Part shown: piece after piece, positions 25,072-60,902 of the stretch
Position numbering within the stretch: the first letter of the stretch is position 1
Layout of the letters: each line of letters starts with the position of its first letter
Source of the DNA: an uncultured Candidatus Melainabacteria bacterium
Lineage (GTDB): Bacteria; Cyanobacteriota; Vampirovibrionia; Gastranaerophilales; Gastranaerophilaceae
Length of the DNA stretch: 64,000 bases
Reading direction: 5' to 3'
Assembly (NCBI GenBank): GCA_949398305.1
Contig: CASLVD010000002.1
Coordinates: 2,942 to 66,941, forward strand
Program-made: the position numbers and the translations under genes
Notes under the pieces: generated by a model
The model's database searches: none
Told to the model about the DNA's origin: nothing
The model's input: only the letters and a program-made list of their open reading frames with translations

Positions 25072-26553
25072 CTACTTTTCAATTAATTCAAATTGCGGAT
25101 ATGTTGAGCCTTTTTCGTATTTATCAGAAGCTTGTATCAGAGCTTTTTTCAAAACTTCATCAATTGTAAGCTGTGTATTATTTATAATAACATCATTTTT
25201 AGCGGCTTTTTGAAGTGTTGTGAATCCTTGACCGCCGTCTGCTATGTATGAATCAATTGCGCATTTGTATTTTTTATTTGATGGAAGTGGAGTTGAGTTT
25301 TTATCAAGTAGCGGTTTGTTATCTATATATATTTGTTTAACTTCCCAGATACCTAAAGACGGATTATTTTTTCCTTCAATTTTAACATTGTTTGAACATT
25401 GGAGGAATTTAGGGTTGCTTAAGCTATATTCGTTGTTTCTTAATGCGTGGCTAAAAACTTCAAATATTTGCTGAGAATCCAGTTCAACTGTTTTAATAGG
25501 ATTTACTGCACTCATTGTTTTTCTGAAAAGATAATTTGTTATAAATGAGTCAGGTCGATAATCCATTGGTTTCATTATGAAGCCTGTTGAGAAAAATGCA
25601 ATATCAGCGTTAGCATCTGTTTTCATGTTATCTGCTAAAAAACTGCCTATAGGACAAGGTTTTGAATATTGTTTTGTAAGGTTTAATACATAGGGTGCAA
25701 GTTTTTCTGATAATCCGGAAGATTGTTCATATTCTTCTAAATCTTTGCTAAATACTTTATCAACTTTTAAACCTTCATTTTTAATCATCTCAACATTATT
25801 TACCTGTGATGAACCGTTATTATTTATAAGATTCATTTTGTACATAGAATCGCTGAATGAGTGAGGATAATATATGTTTAACTCTGTATCAGGAGGTACA
25901 ATATCGTGGTCATGACCGCCGATAACTATATCAATTTTTATACTGTTATTTTTACAGGTTTCAACAATATCCTTACTTACAGGCATGTAATCATGATTCA
26001 AAATGATTACATTTTCAGGTTTTTCTTTTTTTATGGCATTTAAAATTTCATTTATAACATCTGTTTGCGGTTTTGGTACTATACCGAATTTTGCGGTATT
26101 AATGTTGTTGATACAAAAACCTGTAATAAATGTTCTATCCCCGTCACGGTTAACCACGGTATATGGCAGCAGCCAGTCAGGACGTTTCCCATCTGTCTGG
26201 AAGATATTTGCGCAAACGGTTTTAATTCCTTTTGATGTGAAATTTCTTATTGTATCGATAAGATAATCAAGGCTTTCTCTATTAAATCCGAAATCATTGT
26301 TGCCGATTGTTGTTACCATTTCAATGTCAGGTTTTGCGGATTTCATTTTAATATAACTGTCACGTTCAAGATTTTTGGAATAAATTCCTTTAAACATATC
26401 TCCGCAGTTTAAAAATAATACATTTTTATCATTTATTGTTTCGTGCAAAATTCTGGACAAAAAGGCCCGGGTTTTTCTGGTTTCCTGATGGGAATCTGTA
26501 ATTGCATAAATTTTTGTCAGACCGGTAAATGAGGGTTGATTGTTTGTTATCAT
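25072..26553 (-). CDS. Metallophosphatase / 5'-nucleotidase family protein
   Basis: Motifs DSHQE, GDMFKG, GNNDF, NHDY and GGHDHD, plus a C-terminal nucleotidase-like domain. It has no classical signal peptide. The N-terminus is MITNNQPSFTG. Confidence 0.75.
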   Translation of the reverse strand: MITNNQPSFTGLTKIYAITDSHQETRKTRAFLSRILHETINDKNVLFLNCGDMFKGIYSKNLERDSYIKMKSAKPDIEMVTTIGNNDFGFNRESLDYLIDTIRNFTSKGIKTVCANIFQTDGKRPDWLLPYTVVNRDGDRTFITGFCINNINTAKFGIVPKPQTDVINEILNAIKKEKPENVIILNHDYMPVSKDIVETCKNNSIKIDIVIGGHDHDIVPPDTELNIYYPHSFSDSMYKMNLINNNGSSQVNNVEMIKNEGLKVDKVFSKDLEEYEQSSGLSEKLAPYVLNLTKQYSKPCPIGSFLADNMKTDANADIAFFSTGFIMKPMDYRPDSFITNYLFRKTMSAVNPIKTVELDSQQIFEVFSHALRNNEYSLSNPKFLQCSNNVKIEGKNNPSLGIWEVKQIYIDNKPLLDKNSTPLPSNKKYKCAIDSYIADGGQGFTTLQKAAKNDVIINNTQLTIDEVLKKALIQASDKYEKGSTYPQFELIEK

Positions 26554-35031: not shown

Positions 35032-35568
35032 ATGGTGGCAAAAAATATTTTTACAGGGTTTATATTAAATATGGAAGTTTCATTTACAGGTATTCATAAT
35101 TTACATATAGGAAAGAAAACATATTCAAAATTCGGTTCATATGTTGACAGCACGGGAATAATAAAACGCGGAAACAAAGATTACACGGAAGTTTTAATCA
35201 AGTGTGATTTATCTGATGATGCGCAGGGTAATCATTTGAGCGAATTTCATGAAACACTTTCAAAGTGCAGACCGTGTTATCACGTTAATTGTATTAATCA
35301 TCAAAAACCTAATCAATTTACTTTGTTGATGAAACATTTTGGGGTAAAAGATGATGTAGCTGATGTTTTGAATTCGAATTTCAAAATTAATGATTATGAT
35401 ATTATGCTTGATGAACGTGAAATTTTACCGTTGTTTTCTTTTATGGCAAAAATAACAAGACAAATTGCGCTTGCAAAAGGTCCTTCAGATGCTCAAAAAC
35501 AATATGCGAAATTTGTTAATCATGGTATTCATAACGAAGCAATGAATTATATTGAAAACATTATGTAA
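35032..35568 (+). CDS. Hypothetical protein
   Basis: 178-aa ORF with an alternative start at ATG 35071. The N-terminus carries NIFTG and VSFTG motifs. Confidence 0.5.
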   Translation: MVAKNIFTGFILNMEVSFTGIHNLHIGKKTYSKFGSYVDSTGIIKRGNKDYTEVLIKCDLSDDAQGNHLSEFHETLSKCRPCYHVNCINHQKPNQFTLLMKHFGVKDDVADVLNSNFKINDYDIMLDEREILPLFSFMAKITRQIALAKGPSDAQKQYAKFVNHGIHNEAMNYIENIM

Positions 35569-39690: not shown

Positions 39691-41046
39691 ATGATTCAAT
39701 CAATAAATAGCAATAATATTCAATTTAAACAAAATACATTACCTTCATTTAAAGGCGCACAAAAAGAATTCACACGTAGTACAAAATATTTGGATAAATT
39801 TTTAAAATCGCAGGAAAATTTATCATCAACAAGATTTATTCAGGGAACTTTGACAAACTGGTTTCCAAAAGCTGTATTATCAAGGAGCTTTATTGATTTT
39901 AGTGAATTTACCTTTTTAGAATTTATAGAGTCAGGAATATTTTATTTCGCAGCACCGTTTTTTGGAGAACATTTATTCAGAAAAGGTTTGTTTAAAAAAA
40001 TTCAGCCTAAAAAAGTTAGAGATGATGTTGTAAAAAACCTTGCATTAGGTGTTGAGAAAATCAAAAATTCAAACTTAGATAAAACTTTAAAAAACAGACT
40101 TATAACAACAAAAGGCGGGTTATTACTGGCATGTATTACCGTTCCGGCATTAGAGTATGCGCTGGGTTTTGCTAAAAATTTATTTACTTTAAAAGTCTTT
40201 AAGGTTAGTGATTTTAATAATGTGGCAAACTTAAACAAAAATAAAACCGAAAATAATGAACAGCAGCAAAGGGTTGAAAAACATTCAAAAAGTGTTCTTG
40301 TAAAAACAGGTTTATTGTCAGCTGCCGGAATCGGTTCAGGGCTTGCACTTGCCAGATTCGGACATAATTCAAAAGCTGCACGCAAATTTTCTGAAATTTT
40401 ACTTGAACCGGGCGAACAGATCTCAAAACTTTTGCATAAAATTGGTTTAAAATCTGCTAAGACAGATGATTTCTTAAAAGATTACCTAAAATTGGATTTT
40501 GTAAATAATAACGGCAAACTTGCGCTAAGTAAAGGTCAGCTTGCTGTGACTTGTATTACAGGTTTATTTGGTTATTCAAGTGCCGCTAAAGACAGAGGAA
40601 AACTTGATTTTTATGAGGTTTGGACAAGAGTTCCGCTTGTGGTTTTATACACGATTTTTGGTTCTTCAATATTAGATGCCGGATTTAAGAAAATTTTGGC
40701 AAATAAAGGAAAATTCCCTGAACTTATCAAACGCGGTAAGGACGGAGTTATTGAAAATGTTCCGTCTAGAAAAGAGTTGCCAAAAATAGCAGAAAAACTT
40801 TCTAAATTGAATAACACATCAGTTGATGCTGAACTTGCAAAACTTATTAAGCAAAAAGCTGTAATAACAGGTGTTCCTTATTTATTCAGTTTAATCGCAA
40901 TGGGCTTTACATTAAGTGCTGTTTCGAGAATCTGGACAAAATACAGATATGATCATCAGGTTAAACCACAAGAACAAAACTCTTCACAAGATTTTGTTAA
41001 CACAAATCCGGCATTTCAAGGGTTTAAATTGAGTGTTCAAAAATAA
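39691..41046 (+). CDS. Hypothetical protein with hydrophobic segments
   Basis: 451-aa ORF with SD AAGGGAAAAG. The N-terminus is MIQSINSNNIQFKQNTLPSFKG. Confidence 0.55.
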   Translation: MIQSINSNNIQFKQNTLPSFKGAQKEFTRSTKYLDKFLKSQENLSSTRFIQGTLTNWFPKAVLSRSFIDFSEFTFLEFIESGIFYFAAPFFGEHLFRKGLFKKIQPKKVRDDVVKNLALGVEKIKNSNLDKTLKNRLITTKGGLLLACITVPALEYALGFAKNLFTLKVFKVSDFNNVANLNKNKTENNEQQQRVEKHSKSVLVKTGLLSAAGIGSGLALARFGHNSKAARKFSEILLEPGEQISKLLHKIGLKSAKTDDFLKDYLKLDFVNNNGKLALSKGQLAVTCITGLFGYSSAAKDRGKLDFYEVWTRVPLVVLYTIFGSSILDAGFKKILANKGKFPELIKRGKDGVIENVPSRKELPKIAEKLSKLNNTSVDAELAKLIKQKAVITGVPYLFSLIAMGFTLSAVSRIWTKYRYDHQVKPQEQNSSQDFVNTNPAFQGFKLSVQK

Positions 41047-59948: not shown

Positions 59949-60902
59949 ATGCAAATTAGTCAGATTAATAATTTCAGAATGAGTTCATCAAGACCTCTTG
60001 CAAAAGCTAATTCAACAAAACCTGCTATGCAAGATGTTGCTTTTACCGGTGATGATAAGAAAAAAAGTTCACGTGCAATGCGTGCGGCAAGAGATTTAGC
60101 AATCGCATCTATGTTTTTAGCGCCGGTTGCAACTTCTTTAACAAGCTGTGATAAAGATGATTACGGTTATGTAAGAGCAGAAGCTCATGCTTGGAGTGGA
60201 ATCGGAAGCTATATTGATTCTACAGCATGTAATCATCCTACCGATACTATTATTAAATGGTGGTACGGATATCAAAGACCGTTACCTTTAGATTCTTTGT
60301 TAAATAACATGGGTAATTGGGGTATTGATGGTGCTGATGGCGATATGAATGATTCAACATCTAGAAGAAATATTGTTCACTACGAGGGTGTTCGAGAATG
60401 GGAATACGGTTCCAGAGAAATTGGTGACATGAATATCGGTGAATCTTCAAAACATATTTTAGTTTATGATACTGAAATTAAAGATTATAAAGGTGCTCAC
60501 GAATCTTATGGTAAAAGAGTCCTAAGATTCCCTTCAGGAAGTTTTACAATTAAAAAAGAAGACGGAACTGTTTTAAGAGCTCCAAAAGGGCTATTTGTTG
60601 AAGAATATGAAAATGAATTTGATGAAAAGAACGGTTCAATTTTAGATTGTAAAATTAAATCAAGAGCATTTGTACAAACAAATGGTGATACTTTAAATGT
60701 TGCAAGACGAAAGGGAACTTCCGAATTTGTTGAGACTGGAAAAGTTGCAAAAGGTTATCTTGGCGCAAATTCAATTCTGTTGAAAAACTTAATTGGTGAA
60801 TATCCAACAGATGATCATTTCGTAGATTTCAAGGTTGAAGCAGTAAACGATAATGAACTACGTAAAAGATACGTTGAATATATGGATAAAAAAGAAGACT
60901 AA
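59949..60902 (+). CDS. Hypothetical lipoprotein-like protein
   Basis: 317 aa with a hydrophobic segment ending in the lipobox-like LTSC. The N-terminus is MQISQINNFRM...DVAFTG. SD is AGGAGG. Confidence 0.55.
   Translation: MQISQINNFRMSSSRPLAKANSTKPAMQDVAFTGDDKKKSSRAMRAARDLAIASMFLAPVATSLTSCDKDDYGYVRAEAHAWSGIGSYIDSTACNHPTDTIIKWWYGYQRPLPLDSLLNNMGNWGIDGADGDMNDSTSRRNIVHYEGVREWEYGSREIGDMNIGESSKHILVYDTEIKDYKGAHESYGKRVLRFPSGSFTIKKEDGTVLRAPKGLFVEEYENEFDEKNGSILDCKIKSRAFVQTNGDTLNVARRKGTSEFVETGKVAKGYLGANSILLKNLIGEYPTDDHFVDFKVEAVNDNELRKRYVEYMDKKED

What the first reader, a model, noticed from the sequence alone, without database searches (positions are those of the whole stretch)
35032..35094. Recurrent N-terminal [PVA]-[SA]-F-[TK]-G motif on otherwise unrelated proteins: possible lineage-specific sorting or processing tag
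Four proteins in this window carry the same short motif within their first 35 residues, usually after an N/Q/I/S-rich start. The metallophosphatase has MITNNQPSFTG (motif at 26521-26532, minus strand). The 35032 ORF has MVAKNIFTGF...MEVSFTG (35047-35058 and 35080-35091). The 39691 protein has MIQSINSNNIQFKQNTLPSFKG (39745-39756). The 59949 lipoprotein-like protein has MQISQINNFRM...MQDVAFTG (60039-60050). By my rough estimate, chance occurrence of SF[TK]G in the first 35 residues of about 60 proteins is well below one, yet three exact and two near copies are present. The metallophosphatase/5'-nucleotidase family is normally exported, but this member has no classical signal peptide. The motif does not match prepilin (G/FTLIE), Tat or lipobox signals that I know.
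Basis: seen in the sequence. Interest (0 to 1): 0.6.

Follow-up and report, generated by a model that had tools for sequence, protein, structure and literature searches.

The report
Shared N-terminal leader tag in Melainabacteria
Unrelated proteins of this human-gut relative of cyanobacteria (Gastranaerophilales) start with the same kind of flexible leader ending in a short Ser-Phe-x-Gly motif, which in one enzyme family sits where other bacteria have an export signal, so it looks like an undescribed address tag whose destination is still unknown.

Summary
The motif is present at all the stated coordinates, with one correction. The 35032 ORF really starts at 35071 (MEVSFTG), so its first "IFTG" lies upstream of the protein.

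The motif is more than chance:
- Orthologues of all four window proteins keep x-[STAN]-F-x-G, in two families inside otherwise hypervariable leaders.
- In this genome the motif is about twofold enriched in the first 80 residues (65 against 35 after shuffling, z 4.8). It is not enriched later in proteins, nor for reversed or permuted motifs.
- An Obscuribacter-like control genome of the same class shows no excess.

The leader has three parts: a conserved start (M-x-I/V-x-x-I/V-N/S), a polar spacer of very variable length, and the F-x-G motif at a fixed distance before the folded body. About 40 mostly orphan proteins carry it.

In the metallophosphatase family, distant relatives have Sec signal peptides where this clade has the leader. 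In the lipoprotein family the leader precedes a lipoprotein signal peptide.

My best reading is an undescribed cytoplasm-side address tag (0.45). The destination is unknown. A link to the lineage's filament-less flagellar-type export machine is only circumstantial. The scan noted a similar portable leader before, on other Melainabacteria DNA (e1-3990753).

The parts
26521..26553 (-). Leader of the metallophosphatase/5'-nucleotidase paralogue: MITNNQPSFTG. The motif SFTG is at 26521-26532.
   Evidence: The three orthologues found in 60 relatives have MKIISNKYNQNFNG, MQIYNRPNISFNG and MIYNNNQKYNPSFNG. The paralogue clade, found in about 28 genomes, starts M-x-TNIYAITDSH with no leader.
25072..26520 (-). 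Body of the metallophosphatase (Metallophos plus 5_nucleotid_C domains). It has no Sec signal peptide.
   Evidence: Pfam. In some searches, distant relatives carry Sec-type signal peptides, while 22 close relatives carry a leader with F-x-G 9 or 11 residues before the D-x-H motif.
35032..35070 (+). Upstream extension of the ORF, probably not translated. It contains the IFTG near-copy at 35047-35058.
   Evidence: at least 24 of 36 homologues are 164-166 aa and start at the second Met; residues 1-14 have pLDDT below 50.
35071..35568 (+). Orphan protein of 165 aa starting MEVSFTG, with the motif at 35080-35091. Here the motif follows the start codon directly.
   Evidence: F18 and G20 are invariant and S17 is at least 90% conserved in 21 homologues. 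VSF forms a short strand, TG a turn, and a long hairpin follows (mean pLDDT 88); no fold match.
39691..39756 (+). Leader of the 451-aa helical membrane-associated protein: MIQSINSNNIQFKQNTLPSFKG. The motif SFKG is at 39745-39756.
   Evidence: MI[PTSKQ] opens 105 of 115 homologues. Phe lies 7-63 residues from the N-terminus but mostly 19 or 17 residues before the conserved body; residues 1-24 are disordered.
39757..41046 (+). Body of the 451-aa protein. A second copy of the motif, P440-AFQG-444 at 41008-41022, lies in a disordered C-terminal tail.
   Evidence: F442 and G444 are at least 90% conserved; residues 427-451 are disordered and the rest is all-helical; no fold match.
59949..60050 (+). 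Leader of the 317-aa lipoprotein precursor: MQISQINNFRM...QDVAFTG. The motif AFTG is at 60039-60050.
   Evidence: Orthologues across the genus keep MQ[VI]NSI at the start, a variable polar spacer and [VLI]-x-F-x-[GSA]. AGGAGG lies 6 nt upstream of 59949.
60051..60149 (+). Charged patch, hydrophobic core and lipobox (SLTSC, Cys67). This is a lipoprotein signal peptide placed behind the leader.
   Evidence: the h-region and [LVM][TS][SG]C are conserved in orthologues. Some orthologues have no Met between the leader and the h-region, so the leader is part of the precursor.

Best explanation
This is a real, lineage-specific, three-part N-terminal leader.

Anatomy:
1. A conserved extreme N-terminus, roughly M-x-I/V-x-x-I/V-N/S (for example MIQSINS, MQISQIN, MITNN).
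2. A disordered spacer rich in N, Q, S, T, K and P. Its length and sequence drift freely between orthologues, from 0 to about 60 residues.
3. A short linear motif, hydrophobic or Pro, then [STAN]-F-[TKQSRN]-G, kept at a fixed short distance in front of whatever comes next. That can be a soluble enzyme domain, a helical membrane protein or a lipoprotein signal peptide.

Shown: the anatomy, its conservation, its N-terminal enrichment, its restriction to this lineage, and that it replaces the Sec signal peptide in one normally exported enzyme family.

Inferred: the motif and the N-terminal start are recognised from the cytoplasmic side by a common partner. The leader then works as an address tag that routes about 40 mostly orphan proteins, before or instead of Sec export.

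Unknown: the partner and the destination. The leading candidate, held at about 0.2, is the gate of the filament-less flagellar-type export machine that every Gastranaerophilales genome searched retains.
For: Conservation inside hypervariable sequence:
- 451-aa family: 86 of 115 homologues keep [STANQ]F.[GAS], and most of the rest have close variants. The Phe-to-body distance has modes of 19 and 17, while Phe lies 7-63 residues from the N-terminus.
- 317-aa family: orthologues across the genus keep the start and the motif.
- Metallophosphatase clade: 22 diverged members have F-x-G 9 or 11 residues before the catalytic Asp, with Phe at residues 8-47.
- Alpha/beta hydrolase orthologue...QQPNFGS.

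Enrichment and specificity:
- 65 against 35.1 in residues 2-80 (z 4.8), with none later in proteins.
- Reversed and permuted controls are flat.
- The N-terminal start pattern co-occurs with the motif at odds ratio about 6 (p 4e-5, pattern chosen post hoc).
- Clear examples occur in another family of the order, although the statistics there are weak (z 1.9).
- A FlhA-less control genome of the same class shows no excess (14 against 13.7).

Signal swap: 64 distant metallophosphatase relatives have Sec-type N-termini where this clade has the leader.

With/without paralogue pair: metallophosphatase C17 against the window copy.

Disorder: the leader, including the motif, has pLDDT below 50 in the 451-aa family.

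Cargo: 18 of 20 carriers tested have no Pfam hit above the gathering cut-off, and 27 of 38 have no TM-like segment.

Codons for the motif vary, so selection acts on the protein.
Against: - No experiment or computation here shows sorting, binding or cleavage.
- The motif always sits at a fixed distance from the body. In the 165-aa protein it is predicted as part of the fold.
- In the PGI-like paralogue the F-[ST]-G stretch aligns with V-x-I-G in other families of the order. That looks like the first strand of the domain.
- Enrichment is modest. FKG ranks 59th and FTG 115th of 5704 N-terminally enriched tripeptides. In genome G050 it is not significant.
- The cargo is heterogeneous (soluble enzymes, polytopic proteins, a pre-lipoprotein), which no single known route handles.
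- Several membrane carriers are paralogues, so there are fewer independent acquisitions than carriers.
- The census of about 40 carriers is hand-curated.
Confidence: 0.45

Rival explanations
1. There is no common partner. In each family x-S-F-x-G is simply the first strand and Gly turn (an N-cap) of the folded domain. It is preceded by a neutral, drifting, AT-rich-coded tail. The recurrence reflects composition, convergence and paralogy.
For: - The motif keeps a fixed distance to the body in every family.
- It is predicted as a strand plus turn that is part of the fold in the 165-aa protein.
- In the PGI-like paralogue it aligns with V-x-I-G of relatives.
- Overall enrichment is only about twofold and is weak in G050.
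- Several carriers are paralogues.
Against: - In the 451-aa family the motif lies in a segment with pLDDT below 50, 19 residues from the first helix. The motif recurs in that protein's disordered C-terminal tail.
- In the lipoprotein family the motif precedes a signal peptide, not a fold.
- Shuffling within segments controls for composition and still gives z 4.8.
- The extreme N-terminus is also conserved and co-occurs with the motif.
- A control genome of the same class shows no excess.
Confidence: 0.23
2. The motif is a cytoplasmic docking motif unrelated to export. It tethers diverse proteins, through their disordered N-terminal tails, to one hub. The hub could be a membrane-proximal scaffold, a polar or division complex, or an adaptor for regulated proteolysis.
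For: - The leader is on the cytoplasmic side in every topology seen: in front of a signal peptide, and in the N-in tails of membrane proteins.
- The 451-aa family carries the motif at both disordered termini. That fits a binding motif better than an N-terminal export signal.
Against: - In the lipoprotein family the leader is lost with the signal peptide, so it cannot tether the mature protein.
- It occupies the place of a Sec signal peptide in an enzyme family that is otherwise exported.
- A carrier with a C-terminal LysM domain and no signal peptide suggests an extracytoplasmic destination.
Confidence: 0.17
3. The leader is a propeptide, and F-x-G marks the site where an endopeptidase releases the mature protein. 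This could act alone or after targeting.
For: - Variable distance from the N-terminus and fixed short distance to the body is typical of cleavage sites.
- The -1 position is a small residue (S, T, A or N) and +1 is Phe. This resembles the [GA]|F-T-L site of the roughly 100 pilin-like proteins of this genome.
Against: - Leaders of 2-10 residues (MEVSFTG, MITNNQPSFTG) make a propeptide pointless.
- No hydrophobic helix or Glu+5 follows the motif, as a prepilin peptidase would need.
- The C-terminal copy in the 451-aa family cannot be a leader cleavage site.
- No candidate peptidase was identified.
Confidence: 0.12

Closest known systems
Bipartite export signal of early flagellar (rod/hook) subunits: hydrophobic extreme N-terminus plus gate recognition motif docking at FlhBc (Bryant et al. 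2022, PMC8983047)
   Same: Both have two separate elements: small hydrophobic residues at the extreme N-terminus and a Phe-centred motif downstream, joined by an unstructured spacer. No cleavable hydrophobic core is involved. The genome encodes a flagellar-type export gate but neither hook nor flagellin.
   Different: [quoted passage not shown] Here the Phe is often at residues 7-14.
- This lineage's own FlgD has a separate FLQLL element of the kind I take, from my own knowledge, to be the gate recognition motif (F-x-x-x-hydrophobic).
- The residues after the F of F-x-G do not fit F-x-x-x-hydrophobic.
- The cargo includes polytopic proteins and a pre-lipoprotein.
- No binding to the gate was shown.
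N-terminal extensions of Sec signal peptides with conserved motifs: ESPR of autotransporters/TpsA, and YSIRK-G/S signal peptides of Gram-positive surface proteins (from my own knowledge)
   Same: In both, a conserved motif sits N-terminal to an otherwise ordinary signal peptide and is thought to steer where or how fast export happens. The 317-aa lipoprotein family and C11_5736 have exactly this arrangement.
   Different: Most carriers here have no signal peptide at all behind the leader. The sequences are unrelated, and the spacer is hypervariable.
Chloroplast transit peptides with the semi-conserved FGLK motif (from my own knowledge)
   Same: Both are N-terminal, uncharged, hydroxyl- or amide-rich, unstructured and of very variable length. 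Both carry a loosely conserved Phe-Gly-type motif. Both are found on duplicated housekeeping-type enzymes beside leaderless copies. The lineage is the sister group of Cyanobacteria. Distant homologues in other orders have x-R-F-G-Q.
   Different: The resemblance is only in style. There is no organelle and no TOC/TIC machinery, and homology cannot be tested with such short, degenerate motifs.
Prepilin (class III) signal, [GA]|F-T-L-x-E plus a hydrophobic helix, abundant in this genome
   Same: Both have a small residue followed by Phe-Thr near the N-terminus. FTLA occurs 97 times and TLAE 105 times in this genome.
   Different: The motif carriers have no Leu+3 or Glu+5, no hydrophobic helix after the motif and no short basic leader.
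Portable N-terminal leader noted earlier by this scan in another Melainabacteria genome (e1-3990753)
   Same: The lineage is the same and so is the idea: a flexible leader of about 55 residues on one of two tandem enzyme paralogues and on other unrelated families.
   Different: I could not see that leader's sequence, and this genome has no M49 peptidase. Identity of the two leaders is therefore unverified.

Membership tests
Sec (type I) signal peptide | Positively charged n-region followed within about 30 residues of the N-terminus by a hydrophobic core of 10-15 residues and an A-x-A type site | tested here: not met
   27 of 38 carriers have no TM-like hydrophobic segment at all. The metallophosphatase clade has a maximum 11-residue hydropathy below 1.5, against above 2.3 in Sec-bearing relatives.
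Lipoprotein (type II) signal peptide | Hydrophobic core ending in a lipobox [LVI][ASTVI][GAS]C | tested here: met
   Met only for the 317-aa family: h-region plus SLTSC with Cys67, conserved in orthologues. It lies behind the leader and is a separate element. The motif itself is not a lipobox.
Tat signal peptide | Twin-arginine motif [ST]-R-R-x-F-L-K before a hydrophobic core | tested here: not met
   No R-R precedes the Phe in any of the 24 clear carriers, and most have no hydrophobic core. This was read by eye; no Tat predictor was run.
Prepilin / class III signal | Short basic leader, G or A at -1, F-T-L-x-E, then a hydrophobic helix of about 20 residues | tested here: not met
   The motif is F-[TKQ]-G with no Glu+5 and no following hydrophobic helix. 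The genuine pilin-like N-termini of the genome form a separate, much stronger signal.
Flagellar T3SS early-substrate signal | Hydrophobic residues at the extreme N-terminus | tested here: met
   I/V at positions 2-3 and 5-6 in most carriers. The pattern co-occurs with the motif at odds ratio about 6. The pattern was chosen post hoc.
Flagellar T3SS early-substrate signal | A gate recognition motif (F-x-x-x-hydrophobic by my own knowledge) lying 30 or more residues from the N-terminus, with at least 26 residues between the two signals (PMC8983047) | tested here: not met
   Phe lies 7-63 residues from the N-terminus (median 24) in the 451-aa family and at 8-47 in the metallophosphatase clade. Residues +3/+4 after Phe are not consistently hydrophobic. 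The spacing rule is quoted.
Flagellar T3SS early-substrate signal | Docking at FlhBc or the export gate | tested here: inconclusive
   One structure-prediction job of the leader against FlhBc and the soluble FlhAc paralogue gave no answer. This is evidence neither for nor against.
Bacterial microcompartment or encapsulin targeting peptide | Amphipathic helix or G-S-L-K-G-type peptide on cargo, plus shell genes in the genome | not tested
   Considered because of the with/without paralogue pair. Shell and encapsulin genes were not searched. Membrane-protein and pre-lipoprotein carriers argue against it.

The most novel reading that the evidence does not exclude
The leader is the export signal of the second, filament-less flagellar-type secretion machine. 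Every Gastranaerophilales genome searched keeps this machine (FlhA 'type B', FlhB, FliOPQR, FliF/G/H, four rod proteins; no hook, no flagellin). The roughly 40 leader-bearing orphans and enzyme paralogues would then be its long-missing substrates. That would make it a new secretion pathway in the sister lineage of Cyanobacteria, with its own recognisable signal.
Probability: 0.2. Interest if true: 0.85.

Novelty: new variant of a known kind. Interest (0 to 1): 0.6.

Why it matters
Gastranaerophilales are widespread, uncultured gut bacteria, and a large share of their proteins have no known family. A recognisable leader would group about 2% of the proteome, including duplicated metabolic-type enzymes, into one functional class. 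It would also give a handle for finding their destination.

If the tag feeds the lineage's orphan flagellum-derived machine, two unexplained features would explain each other, and a new secretion signal would be defined. Even if the destination is different, a conserved motif placed in front of a lipoprotein signal peptide, and in place of Sec signals, is not covered by current signal predictors. Those predictors would therefore misassign the location of these proteins.

Tried and rejected
- Nucleotide-level element: rejected, because codons for S, T and G vary freely.
- C-terminal enrichment of the motif genome-wide: none. The C-terminal copy is peculiar to the 451-aa family.
- Sigma-28-type promoter scan upstream of all genes: no association with leader genes.
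- Structure prediction of the leader (451-aa family alignment, residues 1-50) with the soluble FlhAc paralogue and FlhBc: no answer, score 0.00. This is not evidence either way.
- Fold searches of the 165-aa and 451-aa models (Foldseek PDB, and VIA-align wide for the first): nothing above noise, best Z 5.2.
- Protein atlas search for the 451-aa protein: only unnamed Melainabacteria clusters.
- PGI-like paralogue as a clean with/without pair: downgraded, because its F-T-G aligns with the first strand of relatives.
- Gene neighbourhood: 5 leader genes in 3 places lie within 3 kb of flagellar-type genes, against about 1.3 expected. This is my rough count and is suggestive only.
- Literature: no description found of such a leader, or of type III secretion, in Melainabacteria.
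- Cluster look-up for names of the metallophosphatase relatives: none carried a name.

Full report
**The observation**

The window is C2:2942-66941 of a 1.92-Mb, 33.7% GC genome. Earlier notes of this scan place it in human-gut Gastranaerophilales. All five tetrapeptides are at the stated coordinates.

One correction is needed. At least 24 of the 36 homologues of the 35032 ORF are 164-166 aa long and begin at its second Met, and the rare longer N-termini are not conserved. AlphaFold leaves residues 1-14 disordered. The protein therefore starts at 35071 as MEVSFTG, and the IFTG near-copy at 35047-35058 is not part of it.

The other three starts stand:
- 59949 has AGGAGG six bases upstream. Some orthologues have no Met between the leader and the signal peptide.
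- The 451-aa family opens with MI[PTSKQ] in 105 of 115 members.

**Is it more than chance?**

There are 32 hits genome-wide, 8 of them in the first 40 residues against about 4 expected. SFTG overall is 15 against 5.4 expected.

The orthologue alignments showed that the motif is broader: [STAN]-F-[KQTNRSG]-G.
- The broad form occurs 65 times in residues 2-80 of my 1,961 ORF products. Shuffling each segment gives 35.1 +/- 6.2, and none of 300 shuffles reaches 65.
- [ST]F[KQT]G gives 21 against 7.3.
- Residues 80-160 and 160-240 show no excess.
- Reversed and permuted motifs are flat along the proteins.
- In an unbiased k-mer ranking of N-terminal enrichment, FKG is 59th and FTG 115th of 5,704 tripeptides. 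They rank behind the hydrophobic words of signal peptides.
- Codons for the motif vary freely, so the signal is in the protein.

Two further genomes were sampled.
- In 800 kb of genome G050, from another family of the order, the statistic is weak (22 against 14.4, z 1.9). Individual leaders are nevertheless unmistakable, and some are orthologous to carriers here.
- In 800 kb of G222, from a FlhA-less family of the same class, there is no excess (14 against 13.7) and no leader-like example.

The feature is therefore lineage-specific and not a general property of proteins.

**Conservation in the four window families**

- 165-aa family: M-x-[VI]-S-F-[TKE]-G-I-x-N-L, with F and G invariant.
- Metallophosphatase: only three orthologues were found in 60 relatives, with QNFNG, ISFNG and PSFNG. 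A paralogue clade in about 28 genomes starts directly with the first strand, M-x-TNIYAITDSH.
- 451-aa family: 86 of 115 members keep [STANQ]F.[GAS], and most others have near variants. The Phe lies 7-63 residues from the N-terminus but 19 or 17 residues before the conserved body.
- 317-aa family: orthologues across the genus keep MQ[VI]NSI at the start, a drifting N/Q/P/K spacer and [VLI]-x-F-x-[GSA]. Then come a charged patch, a hydrophobic core and a lipobox.

**Anatomy**

The motif is the last part of a three-part leader:
1. A conserved start with I/V at positions 2-3 and 5-6, followed by N or S.
2. A polar spacer that is hypervariable in length and sequence.
3. The F-x-G motif at a fixed distance before the body.

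The start pattern and the motif co-occur with an odds ratio of about 6 in this genome (p 4e-5). The pattern was chosen after looking at the data, so this figure is indicative only.

Listing proteins with the start pattern adds variants such as FMG, FGA, FGG and FAG. By hand I count about 24 clear and about 14 variant carriers, roughly 2% of ORFs. That matches the statistical excess of about 30.

**What carries it**

- Of 20 carriers outside the window, 18 have no Pfam hit above the gathering cut-off. The exceptions are an alpha/beta hydrolase and an EF-hand plus LysM protein. Three of the four window proteins have none either.
- 27 of 38 carriers have no TM-like segment.
- Several membrane carriers are paralogues of each other. 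In one group the motif is internal, at about residue 200.
- Three of the four metallophosphatase paralogues of the genome carry leaders, and none has a Sec signal.
- A divergent PGI-like protein with the motif sits beside a canonical PGI. Its F-[ST]-G aligns with V-x-I-G in other families, so it may be the first strand of the domain. I do not count it as a clean case.

**Signal swap**

A search of 1.84 billion representative proteins with the metallophosphatase found 110 full-length relatives among the 150 best hits.
- 64 of them, all distant, have a Sec-type hydrophobic N-terminus.
- 22 close ones have no hydrophobic N-terminus. They have a leader that starts MK[VI], MQ[VI], MI, ML and so on, and ends in x-F-x-G exactly 9 or 11 residues before the catalytic Asp. 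The Phe itself lies at residues 8-47.

In a family that is otherwise exported, the leader stands where the signal peptide stands. This is my strongest argument that the leader concerns localisation. It would equally be seen if the clade had become cytoplasmic and F-x-G were a clade-specific structural cap.

**Structure**

- 451-aa family: the leader including the motif (residues 1-24) and the C-terminal tail (427-451) are disordered. The tail holds a second, conserved P-x-F-x-G-F-K (F442 and G444 at least 90% conserved).
- 165-aa protein: VSF is a short strand and TG a turn leading into a long hairpin.
- Neither model matches a solved fold.

The motif therefore behaves as a linear motif in a disordered tail in one family and as an edge of the fold in another.

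**A candidate destination**

The genome has the following flagellar-type genes:
- FlhA, FliH, a FliG-like protein and FliF together in one cluster.
- FlhB beside a possible FliA-like sigma-factor gene (assigned by eye only).
- FliOPQR.
- Four rod proteins.
- A soluble FlhA-C paralogue and a second FliF-like gene.

It has no flagellin and no further rod- or hook-type protein.

All 121 genomes of the order that I searched have this lower-scoring 'type B' FlhA. Other families of the order, and a few genera of the window's own family, have in addition a canonical higher-scoring one. Soo et al. 2014 (PMC4040986) already noted that most Gastranaerophilales keep only a subset of flagellar genes. Two earlier notes of this scan describe the same second, filament-less machine.

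Some leader genes lie beside its genes:
- Two next to flhB.
- Two next to the FlhA-C paralogue.
- One near the second FliF-like gene.
- In G050, two directly upstream of flgF.

The known bipartite signal of rod and hook subunits, a hydrophobic N-terminus plus a gate recognition motif (PMC8983047), is the nearest mechanistic model. The fit is poor in detail:
- That signal needs at least 26 residues between its parts. Many leaders here are shorter.
- This lineage's FlgD has a separate FLQLL element that I take, from my own knowledge, to be the gate recognition motif.
- A pre-lipoprotein and polytopic proteins are odd substrates.

I hold this link at about 0.2.

**Rivals**

- A purely structural or compositional origin (0.23) is favoured by the fixed distance to the body. 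It is disfavoured by the disordered context, the copy in front of a signal peptide, the conserved start and the control genome.
- A cytoplasmic hub-binding motif (0.17) fits the double-ended 451-aa protein. It does not fit the lipoprotein, which loses the leader with its signal peptide.
- A processing site (0.12) fits the geometry. It does not fit leaders of two to ten residues.

**Comparison with known signals, and novelty**

The leader fails the defining features of Sec, Tat and prepilin signals. It is distinct from the lipobox that follows it in one family. I found no description of it in the literature held here.

This window therefore adds sequence anatomy, statistics, the signal-swap evidence and the arrangement in front of a signal peptide, rather than a first sighting.

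I class it as a new variant of a known kind, namely N-terminal address or recognition tags. Its function is unproven.

Noticed in passing
L081:404-1150 (G000:C3:45864-46610) and genome-wide: About 100 ORFs carry a near-identical type IV pilin-like N-terminus ([GA]FTLAEVLITLGIIGVVAAMTIP). FTLA occurs 97 times against 8.6 expected and TLAE 105 against 13. About 5% of the proteome therefore uses a class III signal, with Ala nearly as common as Gly at -1.
   Followed up: partly
L081, L085, L086, L087, L088, L092-L094 (G000 contigs C3, C22, C46, C57, C49, C7): A filament-less flagellar-type machine is present: FlhA, FlhB, FliOPQR, FliF, a FliG-like protein, FliH, four rod proteins, a soluble FlhA-C paralogue and a second FliF-like gene. 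No flagellin or hook was found. All 121 order genomes searched have this 'type B' FlhA. Other families of the order and a few genera of the window's own family also have a canonical second copy.
   Followed up: partly
window 60147-60170: The residues after the lipobox Cys67 of the 317-aa lipoprotein are acidic (CDKDD; CDDDG, CEDDG and CDKE in orthologues). This resembles the surface-export signal of Bacteroidota lipoproteins.
   Followed up: no
L032 and L037 (G000:C68:4071-5150, C60:6845-7966): Two leader-bearing paralogues of about 360 aa end in GGIHC, the catalytic-Cys signature of agmatine or peptidyl-arginine deiminase-type enzymes. They have no Pfam or NCBIfam hit. The assignment is by eye only.
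   Followed up: no
L033 (G000:C8:3249-4547) and L168 (C51:12652-13746): A divergent glucose-6-phosphate-isomerase-like paralogue (NCBIfam E 1e-18, far below the family cut-off) exists beside a canonical PGI. It is conserved across the window's own family and found in several other families of the order.
   Followed up: partly
window 39745-39790: In the 451-aa family the F-x-G motif is followed 5-8 residues later by a second, similar element ([NEQ]-F-[ST]-[KR]-G/S-T-K). The leader therefore ends in a tandem pair of Phe motifs.
   Followed up: no
L155, L156, L163, L164 (G234 and G219, another order): Distant homologues of the 451-aa protein in higher-GC relatives start M-x-x-S-V-S-[FY] and carry x-R-F-G-Q before the conserved body. 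The leader idea may thus extend beyond Gastranaerophilales with a different motif flavour.
   Followed up: partly
window 35071-35568: The 165-aa protein sits between a DnaQ-like exonuclease gene and a glycan-synthesis operon. It is confidently predicted (pLDDT 88) and matches no solved fold.
   Followed up: partly
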